41,292 bases of DNA, taken from positions 1 to 41,292 of the forward strand of contig NW_014039750.1 in the NCBI RefSeq assembly GCF_001186125.1. The letters run 5' to 3'. Of the stretch, positions 11,233 through 38,759 are shown piece by piece (position 1 is the stretch's first letter; each line of letters begins with the position of its first letter). The notes under the pieces are model-generated. The model ran no database searches, was not told where the DNA came from, and was given only the letters and a program-made list of their open reading frames with translations. The translations under genes were made by a program, and so were the position numbers. The stretch comes from Sphaeroforma arctica JP610 (taxonomy: Eukaryota).

Positions 11233-11488
11233 AGTTTGTTATTTCTAGTATCATGCTGATATTACATCCGGAGGCTTTCGGGGGTGCTGTGCTTGCTGCG
11301 GCCGAGAAGTACGCCAAAGCTGCCATTGAATTCATATTTATGACCTGCTTTCTTTGCGTCGCTCTCCAGTTTGAAGACAACGAGGCATCCGAATCTAGCT
11401 TCTGGGATGTGCGAGATATGAGTCTGATGTCAGACGTCATTTGGTGAATAGACCCCTTCTAGTGAGGATAGTAGTTTGTTCCTGAGCA

Positions 11489-12548
11489 TGTAAGATTCGG
11501 TCTAACAAAGGCGATACTAATGCCTTAGAATAAATAAATGCGTAGGTAAATTCTATATATCGTGTAAATATCGATATAAATAAACGAAATGGGACGTTTA
11601 ATAAAGTTAGGTTTGCCTCGTGAAAACAACAATACTCTGAGGGATTGTGAGGCTGAGACATTGCCTATATATAATCCTCTCAGTACTGTTTCCGCCGAAG
11701 GGATTTTATTTAGTGTTTCGTTGTCGCTCTATTCTGGGGCGAATCCGAGTGACTCATAAAATCCTATCTTTAGAAAAAAGAAACAAAAAATAAAAATACT
11801 CTTGACGTCTTCAGTTATTGTCTTAACCAATAACTTGCCACTAACCCATTCCGCGGCACTACACGGCGCAGATCCGATCCGTACCACAAAGGTGGGTACT
11901 CTACTTATTAGGTCAGCAAGCAAATATATGGAACATTCGATAGTAACAGTGTTTTGTCAACACCGGCCCGAATTGACTCAGCACATATCTTCCATTGTCG
12001 ACTCACTTGGCCCAAGCTTCAAACGGGAATTTACTGACCACTTCTTCTCATACAGCGACTATGAGAGCCATACCATATGTTCATACATTGTATCATACAT
12101 ACTTGCCATTTTTGAAATAAATAATATTATCCCTATCAAGAATTACCGACTTAGCCTTCATCAGACTGGCACATCTGGTTGGCTTATCCGAGGATCAACT
12201 AGGTAACGTTAACAGTCCCTAGAAACCTATCGCTACCGAAGTATTCAGATATAAACAAAATTGAAAAGTAAATAAAGCTCTATTAATAGAACTAGACCAA
12301 CTCTTTTATGTTTGGTATTTTACTGAGGCCTTTTAATGGCCTCATCCAAAAATCTGATAAGTTAAAAGGAAAAGGTTTAATTAATAAATCCATTAAAACC
12401 CATTTTAGGAAACTTAAGTTCCTCGTGCTATTAAGAGTACATTTAGGAAACTGAAGTTCCTCATACTATTAAGAGTACGCTTATAATTTGCGTACTGCTT
12501 AAGAGTACGTTTATACATAGAGTCTAATGTGGAGGCCCGGCTTATACA
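11489..12548 (-). repeat. LTR-like repeat family D, copy 2, with a ~290-bp internal insertion
   Basis: TG..CA ends; flanks AGCA/ATCA (possible decayed 4-bp TSD); homologous to the other D copies. Confidence 0.75.
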
Positions 12549-12699
12549 ATCATAAGTGCCCAGCTGAGGGAATCTCCTCAGAGAGCAACATGTATCCATG
12601 TGTCTATAAGTAGGCATTGGACGAGCTTGTTGAAAACGCGGTGGACGTTCTCAGCTTTGCCGTTTAATTGGGGTGTGTAAAGGGGGGAAGGGTGGGGGG

Positions 12700-13860
12700 G
12701 GAACACCAAGGGACGACCAGCCTCTCTCTCCAAACAGACGTAGTCCCACGGGCGTGCGTGCAAACGTCATGTATGACCGCGTTGCCAACCTCTCAGGCCC
12801 TTCCAGTTACACCTACCGCGGGCAGGCCCTCGATTGGAGTCATGTCCACCATATCGTCGAAGCTGTACATGAGGTGTACATGCACGCTGGCGCGACAAAA
12901 GTAGAACGGGCCGTGAACTTTCTATACGGCTGGTCTAAACTCAGAGATGTTGTCCGAGCCACCGTCAAATGATGCTTTATCTGCCAAGCGTTCGCCAGCA
13001 GTCCATCTCAGGAGTTGGGTCTCCTGCAGCAGCCTGACAGGTCGCAGGTTCCCTTCGACCATATGCACGCCAATTTTGCGGACTTTCCGGGGCTCCTGAT
13101 GGAGTCGGCATTATTCTCCTCGCAGTGTGCAAGACGACTGGCATGGCCTTCTTCCGGCCAGTCCCTGCCAAGTCCAGGCAACTATGCGTTGACTTCGTGT
13201 CAGAACATATCTTCCCTTGGGGCATCCCCTCAGAATTTACGGCGGACCGTGGTTCTGTATTCACCATTGATGTATTGGATGCCTTTTGCGCGAATGAGGC
13301 TATCTACTTACACCTCACTACAGTTAATCATCACCAAGGCAATGGACGCGCGGAAGTTCTGATTAAAGTCGTGAAGGCCTAGGTATACAAGTCAGCGATA
13401 CCCGCCGATCAGACGTCCTGGGTGCGCCTGGTGCACGCCTTTTCCCAGTCGTATGACGCCTTAGTATCCTCTGTCACTGGGGAGGCTCCATATACGAAGG
13501 CTACAACACGCCCTTACCATGGGCCCCAGGCTCCGCTTCTCGAAGAGCGCACGGCATTGATCCTGTCGTCGAAAGCAGGGGCGTTGGACACTGTTGCCCT
13601 TGACCTCAGCGAGGCCATGGTCAGCCGTGCTCAAGTTATACAGAAGGTCGCGGCTGACAAGCAATGATTGGACGTCCCATCCTTTTTCGTTGGTGCTCAG
13701 GTTGTGCGCCTTCTCCATATCAAGGTCCCGGGTTGCCCAGCATGGGCAGGACCGTTGGAAGTCACCCTGGCCGACGAGCACGCTCGTCACCGTGCACGAT
13801 CTCGCAACTAGCAAGGAATTCCTCATGCACCGTACGCACCTCAAGAAATACTATCTCAGC
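12700..13860 (+). pseudogene. GC-rich Ty3/Gypsy integrase remnant (third family)
   Basis: VHEVYMHAG..CFICQ zinc finger; PFDHMHANF; WGIPSEFTADRGSVF; HHQGNGRAE; TGEAPY; WAGP; several stops and frameshifts. Confidence 0.85.
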
Positions 13861-16800
13861 ATTGCCTCGGGCACAACCGTTGCGGTGCGACCGAAAGGGG
13901 TCTATGAGCAGTGGCTGTTCCGCCAATCGCCCTTCGCATCTGCCCCAGAGGACGAACAACGTCGTCTCTTCTACCTCCTCCGGTTGTCCCCTGCTGGCAA
14001 GGCCTGGCGCAATCGAGTGAACTCCCCCTTTTCGTTCTTCCTCGATCACTGGGCTGCCACTAATCCCCCCCCCCCCCCGACCCGTACTACGACCTCCACC
14101 GACCGTACCGTTACGTTCGTCCGTACGTAACGTACGTCGTCCGTCGACCGACGACCTATTGTCGGCCGTACGTCGTCTACTACTANNNNNNNNNNNNNNN
14201 NNNNNCTGGCGAGGACCGTCGGCGGCCGAACTACGTACGGTGGAACGTACCCCCCTTTTTCCCCGTTTTCCGTTTCCCTTCCGTACGTCACCTACGGGCG
14301 TGCCACCTAATACCCCCCNCCCCCCCCCCGGGAATTCAAGCTCACCGCCAACGTTGTTGCCGCCTTAAAGGCTGCCTGGCCAGCCATTATTGCGGCCAGT
14401 CGTCTATCCAATGTCAAGAGTGCCATTGAGATGGCTTTTTCGTCTACTAAGCGTGCAACTAGGCTGGCCGAATGGCAGCAGTCTATGCACTCGCCTTTGT
14501 CCTTCTCCGACCTCCCAGCGGACCGCCACGTAGCTGGCTGGTGCCTCTCAACAATGTCTAATCTCCCGTCTGCCTTGTCTGTACTTTACTGCCTGTACAC
14601 ATTTGTGGCTATGGTCTGTTCACAGTCTTCCTTGAGTCTTGCATCTTCCATCGCAATGTCACACTTCTTTGCTCGGCCCGAGCATACTCAGTTGCATCGG
14701 TTGCCTGCCCTGGGTTGTGTCCGTTGCCTGCCTTGCTCACTTCATCTGGGGGGCGTACGCATTTGTCGCATCACGTGCATGTACTGTTCACTATACGTAT
14801 GTGTGTTCTTATTTGTGCTTATATATGTTCTTCTCCCTTTGCTCATCTACAGTTGTGTCGCGTACGGTGTTGTTTGCCTTCACGCCTTCCCAACTAATTC
14901 CATCTTCGATCACGCATCCATATTGGCCGTTGTCGTACGTATTATCATCGCAGCATCACGTTGCTCGTACCTGCTGTCTTCTCACCGCCGCTGACGTGTT
15001 AATACTTACTTTCCACGTCGTCGGCACTCTGTACACCGCCTTCGCTGTCGGTTGTCGGTTGCGGCTTCACTACCTATCCTAGTTCCTAAGCTACACTGAT
15101 TTTGCGCACGGATATTGTCTCCGTTGCGCTCTTATTGTTTGTTATTCCTATATTTTAAAAATTGCCGACACGGCAGTCTCATTTGTTATGCGTCGGCCCC
15201 GTTTGGCAATTGGGGCGTGTAATAAATTATAGGGCTAACTCTAGGGTTCTGCCAGAACCGCAGTGGGTTACCCTAGGGTTGATGAACTAGGGTTACCCAT
15301 GGGTGAACACACGAGGGTTCAGAGAACTGCTAAAGAGTAAGTACCGGCTGAGTCCCAGATACTTAACTCCAGCACAGTTTGGGTGGCTCTTCCTTTTGGT
15401 TAACCTTAAGAGTAGCCACCAAACTTGCTGACAATTTTAGAGGAACCATAGATTTAGTTTATGCGACTTACAATTGATTTATACTAAATAACAGAAGTAC
15501 TCTACTACGCTCATCGGAGTAAGTCTTGACCTGTGCTCTCGGTTAATCTCAATTTGGTTTAGGAAAACGCATCTCAACGGTGGCTCTCAACCGAGTCTTT
15601 GGTCCTTATCCCTCTTGTGTGTGGGCAGAGCATGCTTCAAGGTGAAAAAGTGGGAGTGTCCTTTGGTGTCAGTGAGACTTGGCTAAGTCCCCCGCCTCGT
15701 GCGCTGCCTGTTGCTTCCTGATCGTTCATCAATGCCGGTTGCTGTTAAATTCTTCGGCCTGGATTGTCTTCCCTTGCGTCGTTTCCGCTGTCTGTATATC
15801 GTGAGAATATCTGGATCTGCGATTTCTGATTCATGTGTCCAGGGGCGCTCTCCATCTGTATATTACAGTGGATAGTCCTGGGTTCCACCACCTCTTGTGG
15901 ATTCTCTGTGGTCAAGTATCGAAAAGAATTGAGTCACTTCTGATGGCTGGACTTGAGTTGGTAGTGAATTCTTCGAACTCGCTAGCTTTTTTGACTATAC
16001 CAATTAGCTCACATTGGCCGAATTGGGAAATTCGGGGGTTTTAGTTTCATCAAGGTTACGGACAAAATACCCGTTGCCCTCTTTGCTTGCTATCTTGTAT
16101 GGTCCTCCGTATGGTGCTGTCATTTTATTCGGTTCACCTAGATAACATATATATATATATATGAACCATCACAATGTCCCCTTCTTGGAAGTGTACATAT
16201 TTCTCTTGGTATTTTCGATCAAATGCTGCGTGCATTTTTTCTTGATATCGTGCCACATTGGTGTCTAGTTGTGGTCGTATGGACTCTTTTAGATTCTTCA
16301 GTTGTGTTTCCCATGGCATTGCTGTACCTGGTGCACTGACTGTTGTGTTATAGTCGGTGAGTAGGTTTTGTCGTCGGCCATAGTACACAGTGAACCCTGG
16401 TGATTTGTGTCTGCATGAGGAACGGAGGTTGTGGCCTGGACAAATGAAAGGCGTGAGCACCAGTTGCCTGGATTTTGTTCAACAAGTTTCCGTAGTAGTG
16501 GAATGAGGCCTCTATGTGAGCGCTCATTTGCTCCCATTACTTTGGGTTGGTACGGTCTGGACACTAAGTGTTGTCACGATGCCTGCTCAATGATTTTTGA
16601 GAGTATGTCATTCACATATTCTGTGCCTTGATCCGTCTGTATGACTTGAGAAAACCCATGTTCACATATGATTGGAACTAGTGTTCGTACAACAGTGGCT
16701 GCCGATTTGTCCATCATAGGTCTTAGTATAGCATATGACGAATGCACATCGAGCCATACCCGAACGTATGTGTTGCCTCTATTCGAGTCTATCAAGGGAC

Positions 16801-17128
16801 CAATGGTGTCTACTTGTATCATGTCGTCTGGAAATGCGGCATTTATTGATTGTAAAGGGTGGAATCCCTTCTTGTGAATTTTGTTCTTGAGACATGGTAC
16901 ACAGCCCTCAATATATAGGTTGACATGTTCCTTTTTTGGCCGGACCATGTGTGACCATCTAGTGTGAGTTTGTTCACTGTTTCTTTGATAGTGTAGTGAC
17001 CCACTGCGTGATATGGTGCTATTAGTGTGGCTCTGTCCTCATACGTGACTGAGTCTAGCTCTGCTGACTAGTCCGCGATGTGTATAGTTTTTGGTCAAAG
17101 TATGGAGACTTTGTGCCTTTTTTGGCTA

Positions 17129-17345
17129 CTAATGTGACCCCCCTGGTGTTGTGCCACAAGCTGTTGTGCCGTTCCTTAAGAACGTGTTGTTTGTGTTCTT
17201 GACTATCATCGGATCTTGTTCAAGTAGTGACAAGAATTTGGGGAACCACGTTGCGTTTGGGTAGTAGGGAACGCATATTGTAATGCTTGTGGCTTCCTCT
17301 ATGACTTTGTCTAACACGTCTGGTATTAGTTCATTCGATGTTTTG
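17129..17345 (-). pseudogene. C-terminal half of the MTase-like domain in element B
   Basis: LIPDVLDKVIEEATSITICVPYYPNATWFPKFLSLLEQDPMIV..TF..GT.A..TP aligns by eye with element A LIPQLLNFVHIQDATITLCCPLRHSEKWLPQLISMIQCEPIYV..TF..GT.A..TPW; lies between RNase H and integrase. Confidence 0.75.
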
Positions 17346-19299
17346 ATGTTGAATGTATCCGTGTAATCGTGACAATCTGTCAGCAACTCCATTATCTTTG
17401 CATGGCACGTGTATGATAGTGAAGTGATGATGGAAAGTTTTCGCTATCCATTTTGCTAGCATGGGATGCATTGTTTGCTGATTGTTCATCTGGCATAACG
17501 TTTTGTGATCTGTCCACAATGTTATATCGCCTCCTGTGATATATTCTGAAAAGTGTTCCAGACTGTATACTAGTGCTAGCAACTCTTTAGTATTTGTCCC
17601 ATGTCTCTGTTGTGCTGGGTTGAGACCTTTTGAGAAATAGAGTATATCTCTTCTGACTCCATCTACAATTTGGAACAGACATCCTCCTATACCATAGTCA
17701 CTTGCGTTGTTCATGATCTGAAACGGTACTTTATCTACTGGGACGCCAAAGTTGCTGAGCATGCAATGACACCTTCGAGTTCTTCCCATTTCTTGATGAG
17801 AAATGAGAAAGATTGACTAAATTTCGACTCATTTCCCTTTCATGAGATTGCGGAAGTGTTTCGTTATGTGTGCAAACTGAGGTATGTGGTCTCGCATATA
17901 ATTTGCTAGACCGATTGCTCGATGTAAGTCACGTTTGGTTCTTGGCAATGGCCAGTCAATCATGCGTTTCTGTTTCTCTGGGTCTGTTTTGAGCCCTTTG
18001 GTTGTTATTTTGACGCCTAATATATTGACTGTCTTGACTGCAAACGCACCCTTGTTGTGATTTAGCCTGAAGTTGGCTGCGTTAAGTCGGTTGATGATTT
18101 CGCGTACTGTTTGTCTATGTTCTTCTCCTGTCATACTGGCGATTTTAATGTCAATGAGGAGGTTGGCCATCACTCGTTCGAATTGTGCTGTTATCGAATG
18201 CAGTCCAAATGGAGCTGATTTGAATGAGTGTTAGGCTCCTCTCCATGAAAATGTAAAGAAGATATTTTCATGTACTTTAAAGTGGTGGAAGCCTCCTGTT
18301 AAGTCTAATTTGGAAAAGAATTGTGCACCTTGTAGGTTGTGGAGTACTTCTTTTATTTTTGGTAGTACATATTTGTCTTATTCATGTTGATAATTTATTT
18401 CTCTTAACTCTAAACATGTGCGTACCTTCTCTAGTATTATTTTGACGCCTAGTATATTGACTGTCTTGACTGCAAATGCACCCTTGTTGTGATTTAGCCT
18501 GAAGTTGGCTGCGATAAGTCGTTTGATGACTTCGCGTACTGTTTCAAGTTCCCCTGTGGATAGTAATGGTAGATTCACTTGTGTGGATGTTGATCTTTTT
18601 TATATGTGGCCATCTTTGACCAATTTCTGAATATTTTCATCCGCTTGTGGTATGTATTTGTGTGGAGCAAAATTCACTTTAGCATGACGAATGTTCATGG
18701 CTTTGACCTCCTGACTTGGTATCTCCACCACACATTCTGGTAGATTGCAGTGTACATCTGGTGGGATCTGACCATTTTGTTCTAACAAGTCTGAAAGTGA
18801 TTCTTTGAATCCTTCCTGTTCATGTTCGGGGCCTTCTTCATGTGGTGTGAGAAGTGATTCCCTTTTAGCATCTGTTGGTATTAGTGGGTTGATTATCCCT
18901 GCTAAGTATATGCCTAAGTATGGTAGAATGTCCATACCTAATAGAACTGGTGATTTCTTGTCTGGGAGGTCAAGTACCTCAAAGCAGTTTGACGTTTTTC
19001 TACCGCCTTAATTTATATCACATACTTCTGTGGAACCTGTGCGTTGTACTCTTGCATCTGATTGTGCTAGTTGTATGTATCCAGGTTGTGCTTTTACAGA
19101 CAAGTATAGTTCAGTTACTACACTTCGATCCATATAATAGCGTTGTGCTCCTGAATCTACTAGTGCATTGTATGTGGTGCCATTGATTTGTATGTCTATG
19201 TGCAATCTTTACTCTCGTGGATTCGGAAGTAAAGAAACGGGTGTGTAAGCAATATTATTTGCATTTATTAACAACGTTTCTTCATCAGTGTGTGCGTTC

Positions 19300-20733
19300 A
19301 CAAAGTCTACCATGTTTATCATGTTAGCCTCCGACCACCAAGCTTTCCATAAATCTTCATCCATGTCTTTCACCTTATTGCCATTTGTAATGGCCAACCG
19401 GTCGATATGGACGAGTTGGTTTTGTTGCGCTGCTCAAGATACTACCGTTAAACGGTTTATTTCGCCTTTGTTGGGGCACTTGCTGAACGCATGCGGTGAA
19501 GGCTTTATACCACAGTGTGGGCAAGGCCGTGGTTCTCGCGGTGCTGGGGTGTCCGTTGTTCTCCTGGTTGACCTCCACCTCTTGGTAGGCCACCCCTTCT
19601 TGGTGGTCCTCCCTCTCTGGATGGACCCCCTGGAGGTATGTCCAGTCTTGGGCTCGCGGCTCGCGGCTCAGGGACGGTTGCGTTTCTCGCTCGCTTGTTG
19701 TCACACTTGCGATTAGCTTGTATTATGGTTGCCTGTCTGATCATGTCTTCAGTGAGTTCATAAAATACCTTCTCTGAGATGTCAGACAAGTGTCCACTAC
19801 TACCATCTGGTTTCGTCCGAGCTTTGATCAGTTTGGCCGTTTCCGCTTGCATGATGCCTTGAAGAATTGCCAATTGATAGACTCTCTCAGTGCCTTTGTA
19901 ATGCTTCTCTAACTCAAACATTGTGCGACGCAACCGTGCTACCCGTACTTCAACATTCATACGAGTGTCATAGAAGTCGTTGAGCCACTTCTCTAGTAGA
20001 TAGTCTACTGGAGTACGACCCAGGTTGTCAATGATTAATATATTATAGTCTTCCACATCAGTGAAGTCTTTCCAAAGCTGTTTGGTACTACGTATATTAT
20101 TGAGTGCAGTGCGCGATACCTCTGTCTCTGTCTGTCTGAGTAGCTCTTGCACTAGTGATAGGTACTGTACCGATGGCATGTTTGTGCTCGCGAACAAATC
20201 TTTGGCTACAGATACAAACTCAATTGTATCACGACAGTCAGCCATGCTGACATATTTGCTTGTTGGCCACTTAAATTGCTCACTCATCTGGAGTAGTTTG
20301 TCCATTTCTGGTTCTGAGATTTTGTCCCCTTCGTGAGGTCTAATTAAAGTTAACTCGCTCATAAAGCCACTGATCGCAATGCACTCATCGTGATCACTTT
20401 TATCACAGTTCTTCATAGCTTTATTGTATAGCTCTGACAACCACTGGTCTATTACTGGTATTAATCTATTGGGTTGTTGGTCATGAACTGCTTTGCGGAG
20501 TTTGTGGAGTGCTCTTATGTCAATGGGGTCGTCCGCTGTTTGTGCATACAACCTACTAGTATATCTACGGTGTAGAAGTTGCTCTCATAGAGGGTCTTGT
20601 CCAAGACTATGTTGTACTTACTCATCGCTGGATCCAATGGAGCTCTTGCTGGTGTGGACTCATCATCCATGCGCACCCCTCCATTCCCATTGTGTGAGGT
20701 AGATGTGCGTGAGGATGCTTGAGAAACTGACAT
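19300..20733 (-). pseudogene. gag: gag of element B (ORFs 20515-20733 and 19505-20551 plus a frameshifted zinc knuckle)
   Basis: 348-aa ORF upstream of the protease, followed by a Gly/Arg/Pro-rich stretch and a C-X2-C-X6-H-X4-C knuckle in the next frame. Confidence 0.75.
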
Positions 20734-22857: not shown

Positions 22858-23603
22858 TGTGTTGGTCGGTTTTAACACCCCAACATATAAATCAGAAAAG
22901 AAGTTATCACAATGGCACTTTCTTTAAATGTCTTTTGGTAAAGTTAGGTAAGCCTCGTGAAAACAGCAATACTCTGAGGGATTGTGAGGCTGAGACATTG
23001 CCTATATATAATCCTCTCAGTACTGTTTTTACGCCGAAGGGATTCTATTTAATGTTTCGTTGTCGCTCTAATAGAAACTATGGTAGAAACTATGGTATGT
23101 TTCGTTGGGGTGAATCCGAGAGACTCATAAAATCCTATCTTTAGAAAAAAGAAAAAAGAAAAAATACTCTTGATGTCCATAGTTATTGCATTAACCAATA
23201 ACTTGCCACTTATCAAAAATTACCGACTTAGCCTTCATCAAACTGGCACATCTGGTTGGCTGAACGGAGGATAAACTAAGCAACGCTATAAGTCCTTAGA
23301 AACCTATGTTCGGATGAGCCATCTCGCTACCGAAGTATTCAGATAGAAATAGATTTGGAAAGTAAATATAGTTCTATTAATAGAACTAGACCAAATCTTA
23401 TGTTTGGTATTTTACTGGGGCCTTTTAATGGCCTTGCCCAAATATCTGATATGTAAAATGGAAAAGGTATTAATTAATAAAACCGTTAAAAACCATTTAG
23501 GAAACTTAAGTTCCTTGTACTATTAAGGGTACGTTTTTAGTTTACGTACTGCTTAAGAGTACGTTTATAACATAGAGTCTAATGTGGAGGCCCGGCTATT
23601 ACA
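22858..23603 (-). repeat. LTR-like repeat family D, copy 3, inserted upstream of element B gag
   Basis: Ends GGAGGCCCGGCTATTACA; colinear with 11600-12548 apart from the insertion in copy 2; left end approximate. Confidence 0.75.
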
Positions 23604-25469: not shown

Positions 25470-27100
25470 AAATAGTCTCATTAGCATCAAGACATTGTCG
25501 TAAACGTTGTCGTATGTCATCTGGCTCGGGCAAGTCTGGGGCCATTCGAAAATTTATCGGTTCCAATAGTTCATTTATAACATTACGATTAATCTCCGGG
25601 AATGAAGATACTAATCCGGTTAAGCCTAATCCCAGCTCTCCCATAACACCTACACCCAGTATATATCAATGATATCCGGTAAGTCCATAAGCTCAAACGT
25701 ACAACCCTCAGTAGTAGCTGTCCCGTATTGGACCTTTGTTGCGCGTGTCTTACCCAAGCGTGGAGTCCGAAGAGCTTTGTCCGCCAAATAAATGTAGCTA
25801 TCATTAGCCGGTGGTGTGACGGATAACTGTTCCTTATCTGCGGATGCCTGAGTGGTGACTGAACAGTTTGCCCCCGGGCCAATTAGGGTACCCATGTCAT
25901 GGCCGTTCACTTGTAAAGTAACATATACACGGTTGTCGGCAGGAAATAATTTATCTTTTACTGCAAAACTTCTCGTTGCCGTACGACCCAATGATATGCA
26001 CATACTCACGTCAGGCACCCCAGCATTTTATTCCGAATCTGTTCCAACTTTCCAACCTTCTGGTGCTTGCTCTACTCATCGTTACTCAGCACATACGACT
26101 CGTAAACCACGTCATGAATATGCATCACTTCAGTCTCCCCCGTCTCAGCTGGTGGTTGATCATGCAATTGATCACCGTCCACTAAGTTAACGCGAGGCCG
26201 AAAATTGTTACCTGCCCCCTGTATCGCACGCGTCGATATGCCCGTTGCCGATGGACGTTGTGCAGTAGCCCCACCATGTTGTGCACGGCTACCCGTGTTG
26301 GTTTGGTAAACATGAACGTGATCGCGAGTTCCCCGGAATCTGTTGTGGGCGCGTGAACATTTCGTCAATGTTCACACGAAATACATCACGCATCTTTTCA
26401 GATGAGTATTCCCGCCAATGTGGATGCATACAAAGAATATCACGGTAGTACGCACCACCCGCAGCTTGAAGTATAAGGTTAAGCATCCCATGGTTGCAGT
26501 ATACCTGTAGAGGTGTGTTCTCATATTGTTACATTTTCATGAATTCTACTCTGCGTTCAAATTTACGAATCTGAGTATTAAGAGGTACTGTCGGTTTCAG
26601 CTTCATACACGCTAACACCTGTCTGTAAGTATTATCCATATCCTCCAAGTCCTGTTCTTGTGTGTGTATAATATAGACACTGGCTCTTCCCAATCAAATC
26701 TCTTGCTGTAGAGCTCGGTGTAGACCCAATTGCATATGAATCGCTTCTAGTTTGTGAAATCGCGTTGTATTCTAATGCCAGTCTAAGATATATGCATGCA
26801 ATTTTATCTTCTGCGGGTTACACAAATAATAGCTGCATTGTAGATTAGGCGGCCATTCCTTCAGCGTTCGTTTGTCAACCGTCACTGAGCATGTTTTAAG
26901 AGTCTCATTAAGTGCACGTATTAAACCCTGTATTGCGTGTGCATCTTCTATGTGTCCCTCTGCTTCTGCGTGCATCATTCGTTGAGTCAGTTAAAAAACT
27001 TGCATCTTCATCTCTGCTGCTGTAGATGCAGTGATGCTAGGCTCTGTCGGTTCTGATAGCTTCAGCGTTTCATCGCCTATGGGTCTTCTAGGTAGCGATC
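25470..27100 (-). pseudogene. Degenerate Gypsy gag/protease remnant (element F)
   Basis: VYVTLQVNGHDMGTLIGPGANCSV..IYLADK protease (25650-26018) and GELGLGLTGL, resembling the PR region of elements A and B; upstream broken gag-like ORFs. Confidence 0.7.
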
Positions 27101-27167: not shown

Positions 27168-28035
27168 TGTAAAATCAGCGGGTTCATATAGTAGAAGCAC
27201 GTGTTAAACGTATACTATAAACGTACGAACGTTTAAACACAATACGGTTATAAAACCTGGTATTTATACGTTGAAACGCAATAGTAGATATTTGTAACTG
27301 CAAAATAATCAAAAAATCTAGTTTACTTATATTGAAATGCAGAAAACAAACAAGCACAGCAAACAAATAATCTATTTTCATATATTTGGAAATATAATTG
27401 TCTACAACAGAGGTCGGAGACCCTGTTGATAATGATATGGTGGCTTTTCTATAATGATATGTTTTCCACCAGAATATAGGATATAATAATTGGGAGAGTC
27501 TCAGGCGAAATTGACACTTGATGACACATGTTATATTTCCGAATGCTCTCAGCGCGAGATAACCCACTGAGAAATGGGGCATGAAAATGATCCCCCTAGC
27601 CAGCTGACTATATGTGCCCGTCAATGCCTTCAATGGAATTGAGAGCTAGGTACCATGTGATGGGGTGCACAAACATGGTGTTTTGATTTATTTTGATTTT
27701 TCTTAAGTTGAACTCAAAGAGATATTTTATTAGGGGGTTCTATTGGAGATTTTTTTTCAAAGCATGAAATGATAAGGGAATAAAATATCATGCATAGAAT
27801 GGAATATAATCTGATCTTAGTTACTGACATCAAATAAATCTAGACCGAAGTAGTGAGTGATTAGAGCGGAGCAATATAGACAACAGTCTCGGACTTAAAT
27901 TTCCTAATCTTCAGCTCATTACAAAGGGCTGAAGCTAAACTTAAATTACATTGTGGAAATTAACTTCTAAATCGGGTTTTTTATTGCGTTAACCTATTAG
28001 TATCGATACTCAGCCTGGTTAGCCCGACTTTTACA
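27168..28035 (+). repeat. Solo LTR related to the element A LTR family
   Basis: TGTAAAATCAGCGGGTTC...CCGACTTTTACA; shares blocks such as CTAGACCGAAGTAGTGAGTGATTAGAGCGGAGCA with the A LTRs. Confidence 0.85.
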
Positions 28036-28681: not shown

Positions 28682-29281
28682 TGTAAACTTCGATGGATAT
28701 TTCTATGTTTTAAACTATGTTACATAAACTAAGATACAATTTTAGTCAGTTAGGATTTAGCAGTGGTAGCTTGTGTAAGAATGATCGGGACTGCCTCTTG
28801 GTAAGAGCCTTAATATCCTCGATCACACAGGACGTACCTCTAGCTGTTCTTTATTGAATAATTTTTACTAGAAGTACTAAGTGTTCATGATAACATGTCT
28901 AATTTGTAAATAGACATAAGAACGGAAGTCAAGTTGATACATTAGCTAATATAAATAAAGTTCCATCAGAAGAAAAGTTAAAAAAAAGAAACAGACTTAT
29001 TGGATTTTGGAGATTGGCGGGAAGACCAAAACCTGTAAGTAGTAGTTCAGAGAGTATAAAATTTGTTTTATAATATCCTACATCTACTATCGTCTCAAAT
29101 AGGTCCAAATATCTGAGTCACACCAAATACTCGGGCTATTGGAGCCATCAAAGTGAATTTAGAATACTTTGGAAATATTGGAAAAATAACTTGTATTAAA
29201 TTTTTTTAAATACAATAAAAACCAATGTGTTATCCCTTTTGATCTTGATATTTTAAACTGACCGGAGGCCGTATTTCTACA
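28682..29281 (-). repeat. Solo LTR family C, inner inverted copy (600 bp)
   Basis: TGTAAACTTCG...GTATTTCTACA flanked by TGAA on both sides (28678-28681, 29282-29285). Confidence 0.85.
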
Positions 29282-29573
29282 TGAACTACTACTTACAGGT
29301 TTTNNNNNNNNNNNNNNNNNNNNAAATACTCGGGCTATTGGAGCCATCAAAGTGAATTTAGAATACTTTGGAAATATTGGAAAAATAACTTGTATTAAAT
29401 TTTTTTAAATACAATAAAAACCAATGTGTTATCCCTTTTGATCTTGATATTTTAAACTGACCGGAGGCCGTATTTCTACATGAACTACTACTTACAGGTT
29501 TTGGTCTTCCCGCCAATCTCCAAAATCCAAAAAGTTATTGTCTTTTTTAAACTTTTCTTCAGATGGAACTATA

Positions 29574-30468
29574 TGTAAAAATAGCGGGTTCCTAATAGTA
29601 GTTGCACAGTAAACGTATAAAATAAACGTACAAACGTATTAGCGTTTATTCTTATAATACTGGAATACGTTTAGCGTATATAGTACATGAACAAGGATTG
29701 AGATATTCAAGATTCTGAACAAGTGATAGTATTCAGTAGAGTATGGGACTCTACTGTGGACAATTAGGTAGTTTTCTAAATATAGATTGGTTTTTTTCCA
29801 CTGAAATTAGAATTGTACATAATATAGGAATAATACAAATTTGACACCTGAAAATGACACTTTGGGAATCTCTAATTAACGGAAGTACCATGAGAGAGAG
29901 TCTCAGGCGTGAAATGGTTGTTGGTACAAGCCTATGGTATAATTCGATAATAATCTCAGAGCAAGATAATCCACTGAGAAAAGGACAGGATCAGAGTTGT
30001 TAGAATTTAGGACAACCTGGTTTTGATTCCTCCTAGCCAGCCAACTAGATGTGCCCGTCTATGCCTTAAATGGGATGGGGTATAGGTGCAGATATATACT
30101 GCGCCAGCTTGGTGTTTTGATTTTATTTTTTATTTTTCTTAAGTTGGACTTAGATATATTTTATTGGTTATTTTGAGTAGATAATTGTTTCGAGGCGTGA
30201 AATGTAAAATATGCGTCCAATGAAATGATATCTAGTCTTAGTAACTAAAGCATAAATAAATCTAGACCGAAGTAGTGAGTGATTAGAGCGGAGCATATAG
30301 ACAATAGTCTCAGTCCAAAATCCCCTAATCTTTTGCTCACTACCAAGGGCTGAAGCTAAACTTATTTTTAACATTTTGCATTTCAGCGTTTTAACGTATT
30401 GTCTTATTAACGTAAACGTATTGGTATCGTATAGCGTATAGTCAGCCTAGAGGAGACCGACTTTTACA
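29574..30468 (+). repeat. 5' LTR of element A
   Basis: TG..CA termini; colinear with 37359-38261 apart from substitutions, small indels and a 22-bp deletion between GATGGGG microhomologies near 30080. Confidence 0.95.
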
Positions 30469-30500
30469 TATTTTTAAGTTTATAATACGCTATCGATATT

Positions 30501-33043
30501 ATGACGAAAGGAAACAATAAGGCAGCGAAGTAGCTAAGGCTGCAAAAGTAAATTGGTTTACTGGAGGCGATGAAAAGAGAAAACACCCCCGGCATCGTCA
30601 GTGGACTCTGACGTAACTGAGATCACACCGAGACAACCAGTACCAACTCTGACTAAACAAAAACGTAAGAAGTTGACCGACTCGGGTATAGGTGCATCCG
30701 GAGGTAATGGGACTACGGAGCGACAGTAGCCACCTGCGAAGAAGGCGAGATCTCGAAAGGGAAAAGCAGAGAAAACGCATTCCTCGGACAACTCAACTTC
30801 AGAGGAAGTCCGACATGTACTTGAATCAGATGTACCATCTCCACCGGTGGATACGCGCAAACCACGTAGGCGAGATCCTTCTTATCACATGATAGCAAGG
30901 GATAGGAGAGCCTTCCTGAAGGACTACCAACCAATGGTACATGATTTGAGACCTACCAAGCAGCGGAGAAAAAAGCAAGCCGCAGCGAAGGATCAAAGTT
31001 AGGATGAATCAGAGGAGAGTCAACGAGAGTTGATCCGACAGCGGGCCAACAGGGCATGGTTGTTTCGAAATACGTATGGAACGTTCTTTCCGGACGTATT
31101 GAAGACCAAACCAGATGGTACCATCTCACCGAGGTATGTTATGAATGCAGCGGTAAGAAAGTTTGGGTACGATTTGTTTAGGGATAATAAATATTACAAT
31201 CGGCTAAAATTAATGAAAACTGACGACGGTAAGCAAGCACGCAAACTTTAGTTTCAAAAGATACTGCCGGAGGTATTCGGAACTAGGGGAGATGGAAGTT
31301 TTGCATACTTAATTTGGTACGCAATTCGGGATCTTCTAGTAGATCTTCTTGACTTGATATCAAACCATTTGGCACTTTATCAAGGCATATTGGCGTTCGA
31401 GATGTTGTCAGACAATGGAGAGGCCAGCAGAATCAGATCTTCATCACCCGAAACTCAAACCTCTCCTGGATTGGACACAACAGCAATGTCGCGAATGGCA
31501 TCTGAATAGGAGCCTAATCCAAATCTATTACCGGAAGGAAATCCACAGAGTGCCCCAGAGGTACTTCAGAAGGACAAACCGACCGAAGAGCCTAAACCTG
31601 ATCAGGTGAAAGCTAGAAAATTCTTTTCGTCATCGGAAGACAGTTCGCCCCCAGCGGCTATCCCAACGACGACAAAAGGTGCTGTCCCATCCGAAGCGTT
31701 CATTAACATTGAACAGATCGATGGATCAAAGGATGAGGCAGATAACTGACTGCATGGTCAAATGCAATCAGAAAAGAAGGGATCAGATCACTCTAGTAGT
31801 GATATGAAAATTGCTGAATTCACTGTTCAAATGAACAAGGCCGAGGCAGCTTCACTCGAGGCGATGGATCTAGGTAGGATTGATGCCGCTAGTCTTTATA
31901 TGACAATGGCTACGCATCTCCAGACTAAGATTGATTCAGAACTAAGAGTGTTTCAGACCGAGAAGGCTGTGGAAGGCAAGAAGTTTGTAAAGGACATAGG
32001 TAAACTACCAATGACATACAGATCTGATCGAAAAGACCGAAAGGATCCAATCGATACTAGCAGTCTGGCGTTGTTATCTAGGTCTTGGAAAGAGTTTGGA
32101 CAGATTATGCTTACAGCCAATCTACGGAAGAACCTATGGTTCGAAGCAGCGCAGCAGAGCTTTAAGCCGTCCTTACAAGTATAACAAGTTAGAGAAGGCG
32201 AAACAAGCGATCACTAAGCTGAAAAAGTGGAAAGAGCAGAGTGAGATGATCGTCCACTTATTTTCGACGGACCCTCGACCGGAATTGCTTGTATCGGTCA
32301 TGATACCACCGGAAGAAGGGACGCCGGTGTCCCACTACTTATCAGAGTTGGACACACACATGTCACGGGCTCAAACTCAGGAGATGTCACCTGATAAGCT
32401 ATCCATGTGTGTACTATGGGTACAGACAATCTTTTGGTCAAACCTACATAGGAGAGATCAAGAGATTCTGTACGCCGATATGCATCAATCTTACCCGGAC
32501 AAGATACGAGAGATCTCCATCGAGAGACCTACCTACGGTATAATGAAGCTAGCGGACTTAACCTGGGCTGAATTTTACTCGAGAGCGGATCAGACGTTTA
32601 CCAAACGTCCTAGTTCCGTGGTCAAAGTCACTAATGCTCAGAAGAAGGTCAGCAGCAATCTTACCGGAGGTTCAGGCAATGGTCGAGACTCTCAATTTAC
32701 TAATGGAGGTCAAAAGGTACACAAAGGGGGTGACAAGGGTGGCAATAAGAACAAAAATACAAATAGTTCTGACGGCAACAAGATCAATGTCATCCCTAAG
32801 GGTAACCAGACCTACAGAAATGGACCGCCGGTAGGCAACCCTAAGCCCAGGCATAGGGAGATCAAGAACTGTAGTGAGTCTGATTGCAATTGGCGAATGA
32901 CCCAACATGAGCCGAATGGCAGATGGAATGGAAGGCACGCAGAAAAGTGTAAGCACTTTATCGAGAAGTGTGCCGACTGTACCGGGACTGGAGGTTACCA
33001 CAAGCATACATGCAAGGTGAAACCAAAAGTTGAAGTCAAGTGA
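30501..33043 (+). pseudogene. gag: gag-like ORF1 of element A (fragmented; longest pieces 31762-32184 and 32096-33043)
   Basis: Lies between the 5' LTR and the protease; C-terminal Cys/His cluster including the knuckle-like CADCTGTGGYHKHTC; upstream part broken by stops and frameshifts, so the start is approximate. Confidence 0.7.
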
Positions 33044-36000
33044 CAGACATACCGGGTCTTGTCACTAAGACAAAAGGACGCACCTCAAGACGAGCGTGTA
33101 ATCCTTGGCATACGAGTTAACGGACATGAAATAAAAGCGTTGTTAGATCCGGGCTCGCAAATTTCATGTATATCCTCGTGATTCTGTAAAATGACAGACG
33201 TAACTCGTAAGTCAGAGCCAACTATGTTGAAACTAGCTGATGAAAGAGAAATCACTTGCAGAGAAATGGTAATCGATCTTAGGTTTACATTGACAGACCA
33301 ACGTACTACAGTTACTAAGGCAGTCATATGCAACACTTCACCAGACTATGATAACACAGTAGGTATGGGTGATTTATTGTCATTAGGTATCACAAATACA
33401 GGCTTACCTACTAACATTGAACCACAGAAGGATCAGTCGGACGACAATTTGTTGAAACCGGTATATAAACCTTCGAAGACTGTGAAGGAGATGATACCTC
33501 GCTTTACAGAGAAACTCAAGGACTTAATTTTCGAGAATGACAAGATTCGGATCACGGACTGGGCTAAGTTCAAATTCAATAACGGATACGTTAGTCTAGA
33601 CCTGACGAGAGTCGATTTCTCGAAGCTGAAGTATCCTACACGTAACTATGTTGCATGGCGTCATGAGCAGGTCGTACGAGAACAGGTTAAAGCCTGGTTA
33701 GATGATGGAGTGATCGCAGTCAACTATGAGCCGACTACTGTCAACCTAGCGCTTTTAGCCGTTGACCAATTCAACTCTGACGGGACACTGAAGAAAGTTC
33801 GGGTGTGTTTGGATATGAGCCCAATTAACGCTTTGATACCGACACACAATTTTCACTTACCAAGGATAAACGAACTACTCAGGCGCATAGAGGGAGTTAA
33901 GATATTCTCCACTATCGACCTGAAGCAGGGCTACCACCAGATGAAGATCTACAAACCACATCGGAAGTATTTCACCTTTACCTGGGAGGGTCAGCAGTAT
34001 TCGTTCAAGGGTGCCCCCTTTGGGTTACACATGTTACCTGCGTTTTTCCAACAAACTATGCAAGATTTGTGAAAGGACACGGACAATGTACAAGTATACA
34101 TTGATGACATTGTGGTATTCACCAAAACCAAAGAGGAGCACGACAAGGTTGTGCGCGAAGTCCTAGACAGACTCAACAAACACAACTTTAAAGTCAACAG
34201 TAAGAAATGTCACTTCGGTGTTAACGAGATTCAGCTGTTGGGTTACCGAGTATCCGGGGATGGAATCATGATCGATCCCGGGAAGGTCGAACACTTGCTA
34301 GACTGGAGAACCCCTACCATGGGTAAGGATGTCAACAGCATGTGCGGATTCGGCAACTTTTTGTCTGACGGAGTACCACACCTGGCAAGCTATTTAAAGC
34401 CCTTTGGACATTTGAGATGGCATAAAGGCAAACTAGGCGCACTGTGGACCAAAGACTGTGATGACGCATTTAAGCAGCTCAAATTAGTGGTTCAACAGGC
34501 ACCGGTAGTCCAGCCACCAAAGGATGGTATTCCATTCATGGTAACAACAGACGCATCCGACATGGCACTCGGCGGCGTGCTGTATCAAATGATTGATGGG
34601 AAACCGAGATATGTACAGTTCTTTAGCAGAGCTATGAATTCGTCTCAGATCAATTACCCAACCGTGCAACAAGAGCTTTTGGCTATTGATACTGCACTCA
34701 CTCATTTTAAGGATTATCTATATGGCACACACTTTAATGTGCTATGTGATCAAAAGTCATTGCAACACCTAAAGGACATGAAACCTAACTCACAGTTAGT
34801 CAGTCGGTGGCATGACACGATCGCAAAAAAAAATCCTTTCAGCATAACACACATACCGGGTATTCACAATCACTTACCCGACATATTGTCTCGCTTCGTA
34901 CTAGACTTTAATAAGATGATTAGGGAGTTACTAGCTACGGATTGGATGGTCAATCCTAGGTGGTTTAAGATCGCTGACAACATACATGGACCACATACCA
35001 TAGATATGTTTGCCGCTCATCATAATGCACAACGGCCGAGGTACCGGACACTGGAACATCCGAAAGGAGATGGATTCCAGATTGACCTGTCTCTCGAGAA
35101 TGCCTGGGCAAATCCTCCATGGTTATTAATACCACAGTTGTTAAATTTTGTACATATTCAAGATGCTACCATCACGTTGTGTTGTCCCCTAAGACACTCA
35201 GAAAAATGGCTACCACAGTTGATCTCAATGATACAATGTGAGCCGATCTATGTGGATAGAAAGGTAGATACTTTTTTCTACCAGGGTACCCGTGCAGTCC
35301 AGAAGACGCCTTGGCGACATACTATTATATGTCGAATAGGCCCAGTTGGACCAACCAAGTGGACACCATCCGAGACTTTCAAACAGAAGGTTGAAGAATC
35401 CAAAATTCGACTCTTGAATCCTAAGTCTCAATCAGAGACTGGGACAACACAAGCACCTGCAGTATGTGTTACCGAGATACAGCCAAATTCAAAGGAGTCA
35501 AAGAGGAACGCATCACTAGTGAAAGCCTTCGGGAAACTGCATACCAAGCAGAAACTCGATTGCTTAAGCAATTGATGAAAGACTTTCCCGAGGTATATAA
35601 TCATGTGACCCAACTAATAGATAGATCAAACATTAGTCGGATTCACGATGTAGAAGCTTTAGGTGAGATTGGACAAGACGAGTCTTCGAGTTCAGGTGAT
35701 GACGCAGTGGAATCCTCACCTCCTGATTTCAATGTAACAAGTAGATCACAGGAGGCGATTCTGAAGTGGTTAAGACAAAATCATGCTCTTAAGCACATGG
35801 ATAAGGTTAGAACTGAAAAAGATTGCAAGAGGTACAGAATCGTACACCCGAACCTCAAGCAATATATATCTCAGGTGTATCACGAATGCAACAACTGCGA
35901 AGTTAACCAGATCAAGCGCTACGGATACGCACCTTTACGCAGCGTATCAGAAAACGAGCCGTGGCGCCGGGTTATCATTGATTTGGTTGAGCTACCCACG

Positions 36001-36990
36001 TCCGAACACACGAAGGATAAATATGTCTGTCACGTGTGTGATGTCGCATCAAGATATAATGTACTATATCCGCTGAAAGATTAATCGACACAAACTGTGG
36101 CTGAGTGCATATATAAGTGCTTCGCAGATTTCGGCTGGCCAGCTAATGTATGTTCCGGCAACGGTAGTGAGTTTACAGGAGATGTCATGACGACACTGTT
36201 ACTCGTTGCGGGATCATGCCATAAGATGGGTGTACCTTACAAGCCTCAGACACAATGTGCGAACGAGATACGACACAGAAAGATGGAGGAGTTCATGCGA
36301 GCAGCACTCCTTGATGAGGTTGACATGCAGCCGTACTCAATCAACTGGGTACAGACACAGATGAACGAATCCCATGATTCAGTCACTGGTACAACACCCG
36401 CTCACTATTTCCGGGGTCGTTATAGTGAATTACAGATCCCCTTCAACAAGGAGTCTCAAGATGATCATGTGTTACCATGTTTAGAGAAGATGCGTCGGAC
36501 CAGAGATGTGGTCTATCCTTGATTAAGGGATATGAAGGACATCGCTCTCAAGAAGAGACAAAAGCGATGGAATGATACCAAGAAAATAGTCGAGTTAGAG
36601 GTAGGCGATATAGTCAACATTATGGCTCGCAACTCCAATACAACTGTGCTTACGGCTAAATATATTGGACCATTTATGATCTCTGTGGTCGATAAGAAAA
36701 GCGGAACGTATGAAGTTAACAACGTTGACGGCTCTAATGCCTTAAATATCGGACCACATCGAATCCCTACGACAGAAATCATCCTTCGTCGCACACGTGA
36801 AGCTACTACACTTCTTATGTCTTACGAGTTAAAAAAGATTCTAGGAAAGTACAAACATGAGGATATGACATATTATACTACGGAGTTCGCCGATGGAGCA
36901 CAGTATGATCTTCCACCATCAGCATTTGATGATCCGGATGTACTAAAGGCCTTTAATAAGAAGTTTCGCAAACGCTTACATAAAAAATAA
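33044..36990 (+). pseudogene. pol: pol of element A: aspartic protease, RT, RNase H, MTase-like domain, integrase, chromodomain-like tail
   Basis: PR ALLDPGSQ (~33140-33160); RT VRVCLDM, IDLKQGYHQ, APFGL, YIDD (~34096); RH TTDASD, QQELLAI, PDILSR; IN H..H..CNNC, IIDLVE, GNGSEF, NEIRH, YIGPF. In-frame stops at 33179, 34070, 36082, 36520 and a frameshift near 35464-35575. Confidence 0.95.
34940..35343 (+). CDS. DNA N6-adenine methyltransferase-like domain (phage Dam / DIRS1 MT type), in frame within pol (ORF 34112-35575)
   Basis: DWMVNPRWF..IADNIHGPHTIDMFAAHHNAQRPRY..DGFQIDLSLENAWANPPWLLIPQLL..TITLCCP..KWLPQL matches the DIRS1 MT pattern DW..F..GP..IDxFA..N..DAF..Y(A/N)xPP..LI..W; NPPW at 35111-35122. 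Confidence 0.85.
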
Positions 36991-37344
36991 GGCTGATGCA
37001 GAAGCAATCTTACCATCGAATAAGCGAACCGACGTGGTTTAGATCTATCCACAGATATCACACATTCCCAGCTTTAAACAGCATGGAATATATGTACCTC
37101 CAAAAGGCATTAAGAAACGTCCTATCCACCATCGGGGACCACAAGGAATAAAGCCCAAACGCAATAGAGTAACCGAGTAGCTTATAACGACTAATTATAC
37201 TTTGTCTACGAGAATATAACATAAGCATTGAGGCCGTTATATGATCGAAACCCGTTTCCTTTCTTTTCGCTTGTACAATTCATGTGAGCTTTTTGAGTCT
37301 ATGTGCTAATACCACATATAAGCCAACATCGGAATTTTCAAGCT

Positions 37345-37355
37345 GAAGGGGGGGG
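37345..37355 (+). other. Polypurine tract of element A
   Basis: GAAGGGGGGGG ending 3 nt before the 3' LTR TG. Confidence 0.85.
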
Positions 37356-37358
37356 CTA

Positions 37359-38261
37359 TGTAAAAATAGCGGGTTCCTAATAGTAGTTGCTCAGTTTACG
37401 TATATTATAAGCGTATTAACGTATTAGCGTATATACCTATAAAACTGGAATACGTTTAACGGATTGGACATGAACAAGGATTGAGATACTCAAGATTCTG
37501 AACATATGATAGTACTCAGTAGAGTATGGGACTTTAATGTGGACAATTATGTGGTTTTCCAAATCTAGATTGGTTTTGTTCCACTGAAATTAGAATTGTA
37601 CATAATATAGGAATGATACAAAGCTGACACCTGAAAATGACACTTTGGGAATCTCTAATTAACGGGAGTACCATGAGGGTCTCAGGCATGCAATGGTTGT
37701 TGGTACAAACCTATGGTATAATTCGATAATAATCTAAGAGCACGATAGTCCAATGAGAAAAGGACAGGATCAGAGTTGTTAGAATTTAGGACTACCTGGC
37801 TTTGATTCCTCCTAGCCAGCCAAGTAGATGTGCCCGTCTATGCCTTAAATGGGATGGGGAGCTAGGCACCAAGTGATGGGGTATAGGTGCAGTTATATAC
37901 TGCACCAGCTTGATGTTTTGATTTTATTTTTGATTTTTCTTAAGTTGGACTTAGAGATATTTTATTGTTTATTTTGAGTAGATAATTGTTTCGAGGCGTG
38001 AAATGTAAAATATGCGTCCAATGAAATGATATCTAGTCTTAGTAACTAAAACATAAATAAATCTAGACCGAAGTAGTGAGTGATTAGAGCGGAGCATATA
38101 GACAATAGTCTCAGTCTAAAATCCCCTAATCTTTTGCTCACTACCAAGGGCTGAAGCTAATCTTATTTTTACACTTTGCATTTTAGCGGTTTAAGGTATT
38201 GTCTTATTAACGTAAACGTCTTGGTATCGTATAGTCAGCCTAAAAGAGACCAACGTTTACA
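37359..38261 (+). repeat. 3' LTR of element A
   Basis: Starts TGTAAAAATAGCGGG just after the polypurine tract, ends GTTTACA; matches the 5' LTR. Confidence 0.95.
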
Positions 38262-38759
38262 TATATTTATATTTGCTAGTGTATTAACTTGACCTACATT
38301 TTTATGTCTATTTACAAATTAGACATGTGGTCATGAGCACTTAGTACTACTAGTGAAAATTCTTCAATAAAGAACAGCTAGAGGTACGTCCTGTGTGATC
38401 GAGAATATTAAGGGTCTTACCAAGAGGCAGTCCCGATTATTGTTACACAAGCTATCACTGCTAAAACCTAACTGACTTAAATTGTATCTTAGTTTATGCA
38501 ACATAGTTTAAATCATAGAAATACCCATCGAAGTTTACAGTTTCGTGCTGACAATTTTGCGTTCCACTGGGCTGATTTGCTATATCCCAGCTATACCGCT
38601 ATTAGGTAACTGGTCAGTTGGTGTCGTCTATTTTTGCGTTGGGTGTTGAAAAGCCCATTGCAGCTGCGATGTTGTTGCTACCTGTTGCTCTGCTCAAGAT
38701 TATCGACTTCTGATGCCGTCTGGACCGTTGTGTCATTAGTAGTGAACACAACAAATCAT

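What the first reader, a model, noticed from the sequence alone, without database searches (positions are those of the whole stretch)
34940..35343. Gypsy LTR retrotransposon with an in-frame DNA adenine methyltransferase-like domain between RNase H and a DDE integrase
Seen: directly after the RNase H end (PDILSR) the pol frame continues without a stop into DW..F..GPHTIDMFAA..N..DGF..AWANPPW..LIP..W and then towards an H2C2/DDE integrase. The element has direct TG..CA LTRs, a PPT and a TSD. Established: NPP(Y/F/W) is catalytic motif IV of amino (N6-adenine/N4-cytosine) methyltransferases, and a phage-Dam-like MT domain after RT-RH is typical of DIRS1-like elements, which use a tyrosine recombinase and often have a degenerate motif (e.g. 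FPP). Inference: this is a Gypsy lineage that acquired or kept the MT module with a canonical catalytic motif and could methylate its own cDNA or insertion sites. I do not know this as a standard Gypsy architecture; novelty needs a literature and Repbase check.
Basis: partly seen in the sequence, partly recalled or inferred. Interest (0 to 1): 0.92.

Follow-up and report, generated by a model that had tools for sequence, protein, structure and literature searches.

The report
Decayed gypsy retrotransposon carrying adenine methyltransferase
This is a broken copy of a gypsy-type jumping gene that carries a conserved adenine-methyltransferase-like domain between its RNase H and integrase, a design and lineage already described in a 2026 preprint; the domain likely methylates the element's own nucleic acid, but whether DNA or RNA is untested.

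Summary
An 8.7-kb Ty3/Gypsy element (LTRs 93% identical, PPT, 4-bp TSD matched by an empty-site paralogue) has RNase H running in frame into a 135-aa domain with DMFA and NPPW motifs. The domain hits Pfam Dam weakly (E 3e-4), folds confidently as an amino-methyltransferase and is as conserved as RT. One correction: this copy is dead, and its integrase lies in another frame; the single-ORF form exists in relatives. It is not a new architecture. bioRxiv 10.64898/2026.05.21.726589 describes DAM-LTRs, including an ichthyosporean lineage, and the RT (100/98) and MT (SH-aLRT 96) trees group this element with Abeoforma DAM-LTRs. This scan also noted DAM-LTRs before in other genomes (23 notes). Two points go beyond the preprint. 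The domain's best structural match is the RNA cap methyltransferase PCIF1/CAPAM (Z 11, against 8.6 for T4 Dam), which keeps an RNA or hybrid substrate open. The clade also ends in a chromodomain-fold tail, cage-degenerate in this subfamily, although the preprint says the lineage has none. A second, distant DAM-LTR remnant lies in the window.

The parts
29570..29573 (+). left target-site duplication (TATA, 4 bp)
   Evidence: the empty-site paralogue has one 4-bp unit
29574..30468 (+). 5' LTR (TG...CA, 7-bp terminal inverted repeat); no TGG-type tRNA primer site follows it
30500..33043 (+). broken gag-like region; last open stretch 32015-33043 ends in a Cys/His-rich motif; no Pfam hit; 5' limit approximate
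33089..33420 (+). aspartic protease (LLDPGS at 33140), stop at 33179; same frame as the gag end; limits approximate
   Evidence: Pfam protease hits in P0002
33689..34252 (+). reverse transcriptase (YIDD at 34097), one stop at 34070; Ty3/Gypsy type
34547..34894 (+). Ty3-type RNase H
   Evidence: PF17917 E 3.6e-27
34940..35344 (+). Dam/PCIF1-clade amino-methyltransferase domain; DMFA 35003-35014, NPPW 35111-35122
35345..35781 (+). poorly conserved linker holding the frameshift (about 35490-35535)
   Evidence: linker 28% identical between P0001 and P0002
35782..36522 (+). H2C2 zinc finger and DDE integrase core, broken (stops at 36082 and 36520; second Asp replaced)
36523..36990 (+). integrase tail: SH3-like barrel then a chromodomain-fold module (about 36823-36985) lacking the two conserved tryptophans
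37345..37355 (+). polypurine tract
37359..38261 (+). 3' LTR
38262..38265 (+). right target-site duplication (TATA)
28682..29049 (-). uninterrupted paralogue of the repeat into which the element inserted (empty site)
17138..17362 (-). C-terminal half of an MT domain in a second, distant and decayed DAM-LTR (about 16100-20600, -)
   Evidence: tblastn E 3e-12 with P0119

Best explanation
This is a decayed copy of a Ty3/Gypsy 'DAM-LTR' retrotransposon that groups with the ichthyosporean (Abeoforma/Sphaeroforma) lineage, and its Pol domain between RNase H and integrase is predicted to be a SAM-dependent N6-adenine methyltransferase that likely marks the element's own replication intermediates inside the virus-like particle. 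Shown: the architecture, Gypsy-type RT, clade placement, conservation and intact NPPW. Predicted: the methyltransferase fold. Inferred: (1) the small domain (135 aa, no separate target-recognition domain) is carried into the particle as part of Pol and gains access to substrate by its fusion to RT-RNase H and integrase, which would explain why the isolated domain did not methylate E. coli DNA in the preprint; (2) it puts 6mA on nascent cDNA or the RNA:DNA hybrid; (3) after integration host AMT1 would maintain the mark and favour transcription (the preprint's model). This particular copy cannot make the protein.
For: In-frame RH-MT fusion. Dam family hit in the window and in 28 of 30 aligned homologues; PHROG DNA methyltransferase phrog_111 in 25 of 30. 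Model pLDDT 92; top matches are all SAM-dependent methyltransferases. MT identity to P0001/P0002 is 70/64%, against RT 71/62%, RH 73/77%, IN core 53/59%, and 28% for the linker between the two relatives. 22 of 38 listed variant sites in the MT are synonymous against 21-26% expected (p 1e-6 to 2e-5; the tool showed 40 of 73 sites, 2 lay outside the domain), none in NPPW. NPP[WF] in 10 of 11 clade relatives. RT clade of 12 rows, all with MT, at 100/98 includes A. whisleri P0119. MT clade at SH-aLRT 96 includes A. whisleri P0115, P0117, P0119 and S. arctica P0124. Fragments of closely related families are annotated in S. arctica (P0143, P0203). The preprint reports more 6mA-marked insertions and higher expression for DAM-LTRs in A. 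whisleri and S. arctica.
Against: No activity has been shown: the preprint's heterologous assays gave no DNA 6mA. Its 6mA enrichment is at ApT, the host AMT1 motif, and can follow from transcription alone. The best structural match is an RNA enzyme, PCIF1/CAPAM, ahead of T4 Dam. Iyer et al. judged DIRS-type copies likely inactive. The closest subfamily includes a CPPW variant in an otherwise intact ORF (P0002), and one listed variant changes the D of DMFA. The host of the window is inferred, not given (no genome held).
Confidence: 0.5

Rival explanations
1. The domain works like its structural relative PCIF1/CAPAM and methylates RNA: an adenosine near the cap or within the element's own transcript or primer, affecting stability, translation or packaging.
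For: CAPAM is the top match in three structural searches: Foldseek E 4.9e-4; Z 11.0, rmsd 2.4, 123 aligned; Z 10.8 against 9.0 for the next and 8.1 for T4 Dam among 48,161 chains. Most next hits are rRNA adenine methyltransferases. 4 of 30 homologues hit Pfam PCIF1_WW weakly. Iyer et al. place DIRS1 MTases in the PCIF1 clade and suggest interaction with template transcripts. DNA assays were negative. An orchid Gypsy with an m6A RNA demethylase domain is a precedent for RNA-level modules (title and passages).
Against: Identity to CAPAM is 11-14%. CAPAM needs a large helical domain for cap and substrate binding, which this 135-aa domain lacks. By sequence the nearest families are phage DNA methyltransferases. 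No solved structure of a PF05869-type phage Dam appeared in the searches, so CAPAM may simply be the nearest solved relative. A shared fold shows no function.
Confidence: 0.25
2. The domain is non-catalytic or only a SAM/nucleic-acid-binding module, kept for a structural or targeting role in Pol.
For: Negative assays; Iyer et al.'s view of DIRS copies; CPPW in intact P0002; 4 of 24 DAM-LTR domains lack the motif's N-P-P; earlier scan notes report conserved domains with lost motifs in other genomes (not checked here).
Against: NPP[WF] is kept in 10 of 11 clade relatives that share only about 35-45% identity with the window domain, with the D[LM]FA strand nearly invariant.
Confidence: 0.2
3. A recent DIRS-Gypsy chimera, nested insertion or misassembly.
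For: The copy is broken and lies in a repeat-rich, gapped scaffold; the MT family is shared with DIRS-like ORFs.
Against: The same RT-RH-MT-IN order occurs in single ORFs of 11 independent clade relatives. The RT is Gypsy (100/100 split from DIRS-like rows). Contigs from several studies run across the RH-MT junction region (table 8). LTRs, PPT and TSD are consistent.
Confidence: 0.02

Closest known systems
Ichthyosporean DAM-LTR lineage (Fernandez-Moreno et al., bioRxiv 10.64898/2026.05.21.726589; whole main text read, supplements closed)
   Same: Ty3/Gypsy organisation with a PF05869 domain in Pol and a conserved NPP motif; RT and MT group with A. whisleri proteins; related fragments annotated in S. 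arctica.
   Different: The preprint says this lineage lacks chromodomains. Here clade members, including A. whisleri P0119, carry a divergent chromodomain-like tail, and the window's subfamily has a predicted chromo fold without the two tryptophans. The preprint does not mention PCIF1/CAPAM. This copy is dead.
DIRS retrotransposon MT domain (PF05869; PMC3783388 and PMC5890265, passages read)
   Same: Same domain family, same position after RT-RNase H.
   Different: DIRS lack protease and DDE integrase, use a tyrosine recombinase and inverted repeats; their RT forms a separate clade.
PCIF1/CAPAM cap-specific adenosine N6-methyltransferase (PDB 6IRX, 6IS0; PMC4738411 and PMC8287941, passages read)
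   Same: Best structural match (Z about 11, rmsd 2.4-2.8); NPPF/NPPW motif; same clade according to Iyer et al.
   Different: 11-14% identity; no WW or helical cap-binding domain; embedded in a retroelement Pol.
KnitGypsy-Dnmt3 of Klebsormidium (PMC5890265, passages read)
   Same: A Gypsy Pol that has captured a methyltransferase.
   Different: That is a C5-cytosine DNMT, unrelated to the amino-methyltransferase here.

Membership tests
Ty3/Gypsy LTR retrotransposon | Direct TG...CA LTRs, PPT, TSD | tested here: met
Ty3/Gypsy LTR retrotransposon | PR-RT-RH-IN order with DDE integrase | tested here: met
   broken in this copy, intact in P0002
Ty3/Gypsy LTR retrotransposon | RT groups with Gypsy, not DIRS | tested here: met
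   (Ty3 best PDB hit, E 6e-36); DIRS-like rows were labelled by architecture (RT+MT, no integrase), not by a verified recombinase
DAM-LTR (Fernandez-Moreno 2026) | PF05869 Dam domain within the Pol of an integrase-type LTR element | tested here: met
   window E 2.9e-4, weaker than the preprint's 1e-5 screen; P0001 E 7.4e-6; clade members to 2e-14
Ichthyosporean DAM-LTR lineage | RT and MT cluster with ichthyosporean DAM-LTRs | tested here: met
   the preprint's own sequence set was not available
Ichthyosporean DAM-LTR lineage | No chromodomain (as stated in the preprint) | tested here: inconclusive
Ichthyosporean DAM-LTR lineage | Host is an AMT1-encoding ichthyosporean; copies enriched in 6mA | not testable with these tools
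   no genome held; host inferred from named homologues only
DIRS retrotransposon | Tyrosine recombinase, inverted terminal repeats, no protease or DDE integrase | tested here: not met
   direct LTRs, protease and DDE integrase present
Active N6-adenine DNA methyltransferase | Motif IV NPP[YFW] in a class I SAM-dependent fold | tested here: met
   (fold is predicted)
Active N6-adenine DNA methyltransferase | Methyl transfer to DNA adenine | not testable with these tools
   preprint assays on representatives were negative
Chromovirus | Chromodomain at the integrase C-terminus | tested here: inconclusive
   Fold match rmsd 1.4-1.9 A to CBX7, HP1, SUV39H1 at E about 0.02, but the alignment used for folding held true chromodomains; the window sequence alone scores 5.5 bits, and 1 of 1000 shuffles scored higher

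The most novel reading that the evidence does not exclude
The 'Dam' domain of DAM-LTR and DIRS elements is a minimal PCIF1/CAPAM-type enzyme that methylates the element's own RNA or RNA:DNA replication intermediate rather than duplex DNA, and the ichthyosporean DAM-LTRs are chromoviruses whose chromodomain has progressively lost its methyl-lysine cage.
Probability: 0.25. Interest if true: 0.7.

Novelty: already known. Interest (0 to 1): 0.3.

Why it matters
As a discovery it matters little: the architecture and lineage are in a May 2026 preprint and this copy is dead. It does sharpen an open question. No one has shown what the DIRS/DAM-LTR methyltransferase acts on. The CAPAM-like fold gives a concrete reason to test capped RNA and RNA:DNA hybrids, and intact natural relatives (P0001, P0119) exist for that test. 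An RNA-methylating module in Pol would change the 'transposons hijack host 6mA chromatin' model.

Tried and rejected
Own-genome search: no genome held, so no copy census or host AMT1 check. Metagenome contig scan: 22 pattern matches, none confirmed. ESM Atlas: not answered, not repeated. Profile searches of the PDB by sequence with MT alignments A1 and A2 found no methyltransferase; the link to CAPAM is structural apart from weak PCIF1_WW hits. GATC looked enriched in the element (observed/expected 1.9) but ranked 41 of 256 under a second-order model: rejected. ApT is not enriched. Self-priming partner for the missing tRNA primer site: only 8-mers, no support. No tRNA genes. Sequencing runs: no RNA holder listed, so no statement on expression; contig depth was not used as copy number. 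First RT tree timed out and was replaced by FastTree on 123 rows and IQ-TREE on 54 rows. Rows dropped: 17 near-duplicate cluster members, RT hits under 150 aa, MT hits under 110 aa and most unlabelled MT hits; also P0147, 43 of 65 Gypsy and 25 of 39 DIRS-like rows. The MT tree has only 147 columns and cannot name a donor. Literature: seven searches; 'DAM-LTR' occurs in the preprint only, and PCIF1 with DIRS1 only in PMC4738411; no listing showed an RNA-substrate test. Subscription papers, Repbase and the preprint's supplements could not be seen and may already cover the chromodomain or PCIF1 points.

Full report
Observation. The window holds an LTR element from 29574 to 38261. The LTRs begin TG and end CA and are 93.2% identical over 881 columns; a purine tract precedes the 3' LTR. 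The flanks share TATA. Because four A/T bases could be chance, I looked for an empty site: the repeat into which the element inserted has an uninterrupted paralogue at about 28682-29049 on the minus strand, and it shows one 4-bp unit at the junction. The frame does not reach the integrase: it stops at 35573, the integrase is in another frame, and there are stops in protease, RT and integrase. The copy is dead.

The domain is a real methyltransferase-family domain. The window segment hits Pfam Dam PF05869 at E 2.9e-4, below the curated cut-off. A full HMMER scan returned 959 relatives at E<=0.001. 28 of 30 aligned homologues hit Dam and 25 of 30 hit a phage DNA methyltransferase PHROG. An AlphaFold2 model from a 60-row alignment has pLDDT 92. 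Its best matches are PCIF1/CAPAM (Z 11.0, rmsd 2.4, 123 aligned), KsgA/Erm rRNA methyltransferases (Z 9-9.7) and T4 Dam (Z 8.6, rmsd 3.1, 113 aligned); an unbiased search of 48,161 chains again ranks CAPAM first (10.8 against 9.0). The T4 Dam alignment spans residues 5-259 with about 110 pairs, which suggests (inference; only end points are given) both halves of the catalytic core without the target-recognition domain.

The fusion is old and selected. Two intact relatives carry RT-RH-MT-IN in one ORF. Identity to them is 70/64% in MT, 71/62% in RT, 73/77% in RNase H and 53/59% in the integrase core, while the MT-IN linker is 28% identical between the two. Of 38 variant sites listed inside the MT from related contigs, 22 are synonymous against 21-26% expected, and none lies in NPPW (the tool showed 40 of 73 sites). 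Eighteen non-redundant RT-bearing MT-plus-Gypsy proteins were recovered.

Placement. In RT trees the window sits among Ty3/Gypsy rows, apart from DIRS-like rows (100/100), in a 12-row clade (100/98) whose members all have the MT between RNase H and integrase. One member, P0119, is from Abeoforma whisleri. In the MT tree the window is in a clade (SH-aLRT 96) with three A. whisleri proteins and a Sphaeroforma arctica protein, along with some unlabelled rows and two DAM-LTRs whose RTs lie elsewhere. S. arctica gene models P0203 and P0143 match the window's MT end and linker, and P0143 also matches the flanking repeat. The host is therefore likely an ichthyosporean near Sphaeroforma; this is inferred, as no genome is held. 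MT-bearing Gypsy RTs need at least three changes of state on the tree, consistent with repeated gain or loss; the short MT alignment cannot name a donor.

What is known. bioRxiv 10.64898/2026.05.21.726589 (whole main text read; supplements closed) claims the first identification of Dam domains in non-DIRS LTR retrotransposons and defines five lineages, one of them in Pirum, Abeoforma and Sphaeroforma. It reports more 6mA-marked insertions and higher expression in DAM-LTRs, and negative E. coli assays. DIRS MT domains were known earlier (PMC3783388, PMC5890265; passages). Iyer et al. (PMC4738411; passages) placed them in the PCIF1 clade and thought them inactive. Earlier notes of this scan reached the same preprint for other genomes (not checked here); none matched this sequence.

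Mechanism. The most likely working model is that Pol carries a compact SAM-dependent amino-methyltransferase into the particle, where fusion to RT-RNase H and integrase supplies substrate access; it marks cDNA or the hybrid with 6mA, and host AMT1 keeps the mark after integration. Only the architecture, conservation and motif are shown, the fold is predicted, and every catalytic step is inferred (about 0.5). The RNA rival (0.25) rests on the CAPAM match and the negative DNA assays, but the domain lacks CAPAM's helical cap-binding domain (PMC8287941; passages) and its sequence neighbours are phage DNA enzymes. A non-catalytic role (0.2) is supported by the CPPW variant in intact P0002 and opposed by NPP[WF] in 10 of 11 clade relatives.

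Two additions to the preprint. First, it never mentions PCIF1 or CAPAM. Second, it says the ichthyosporean lineage lacks chromodomains. Pfam agrees for the window, P0001, P0002 and P0119, but a profile built from non-clade chromodomains scores P0119 at 23.7 bits and eight other clade members at 10.9-25.6. The alignment shows the chromo pattern with both tryptophans in most members and their loss in the window's subfamily. The window tail models as an SH3-like barrel plus a three-strand, one-helix module matching CBX7, HP1 and SUV39H1 at rmsd 1.4-1.9 A. That model leaned on true chromodomains in its alignment, and the window sequence alone barely exceeds shuffles, so this is suggestive for the window and stronger for the clade.

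Verdict. Real feature, known architecture and very likely known lineage, dead copy. Interest 0.3, kept above the floor by the untested substrate question.

Noticed in passing
window 16100-20600 (-), MT remnant 17138-17362: A second, distant (about 30% identical) decayed Gypsy element keeps the C-terminal half of an MT domain after RNase H, the N-terminal half with the motif being deleted, and a chromo-like tail near 15600-15730; so two DAM-LTR families lie within 20 kb.
   Followed up: partly
window 33036-33135 (+): The gag end and protease are in one frame separated by a single TGA (33041) that lies in a hairpin followed by a second hairpin (z -2.5); several intact relatives' Pol ORFs also start shortly before the protease. 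Possible programmed readthrough; may be decay.
   Followed up: partly
window 30469-30490 (+): No TGG-type tRNA primer-binding site follows the 5' LTR; the priming mode is unexplained.
   Followed up: partly
window 27591-28035 (+): A diverged partial copy of the same LTR (73% identical), probably a solo or truncated LTR.
   Followed up: no
window 12634-13382 (+) and 25650-26027 (-): Further retroelement fragments: an H2C2/integrase piece and an aspartic protease piece.
   Followed up: no
window 10473-12548 and 22932-23603: A dispersed repeat family in both orientations, 76-88% identical, likely LTRs of another element.
   Followed up: no
window 4234-5424 (-): A 396-codon open frame with no Pfam hit.
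   Followed up: no
P0147: A 2144-aa protein with endonuclease/exonuclease/phosphatase domain, then Dam, then RT-RH-H2C2-integrase: a different MT position and an unusual domain set.
   Followed up: no
P0066, P0068: Gypsy polyproteins with a C5-cytosine methyltransferase domain (PF00145), as in described Gypsy-DNMT elements.
   Followed up: no
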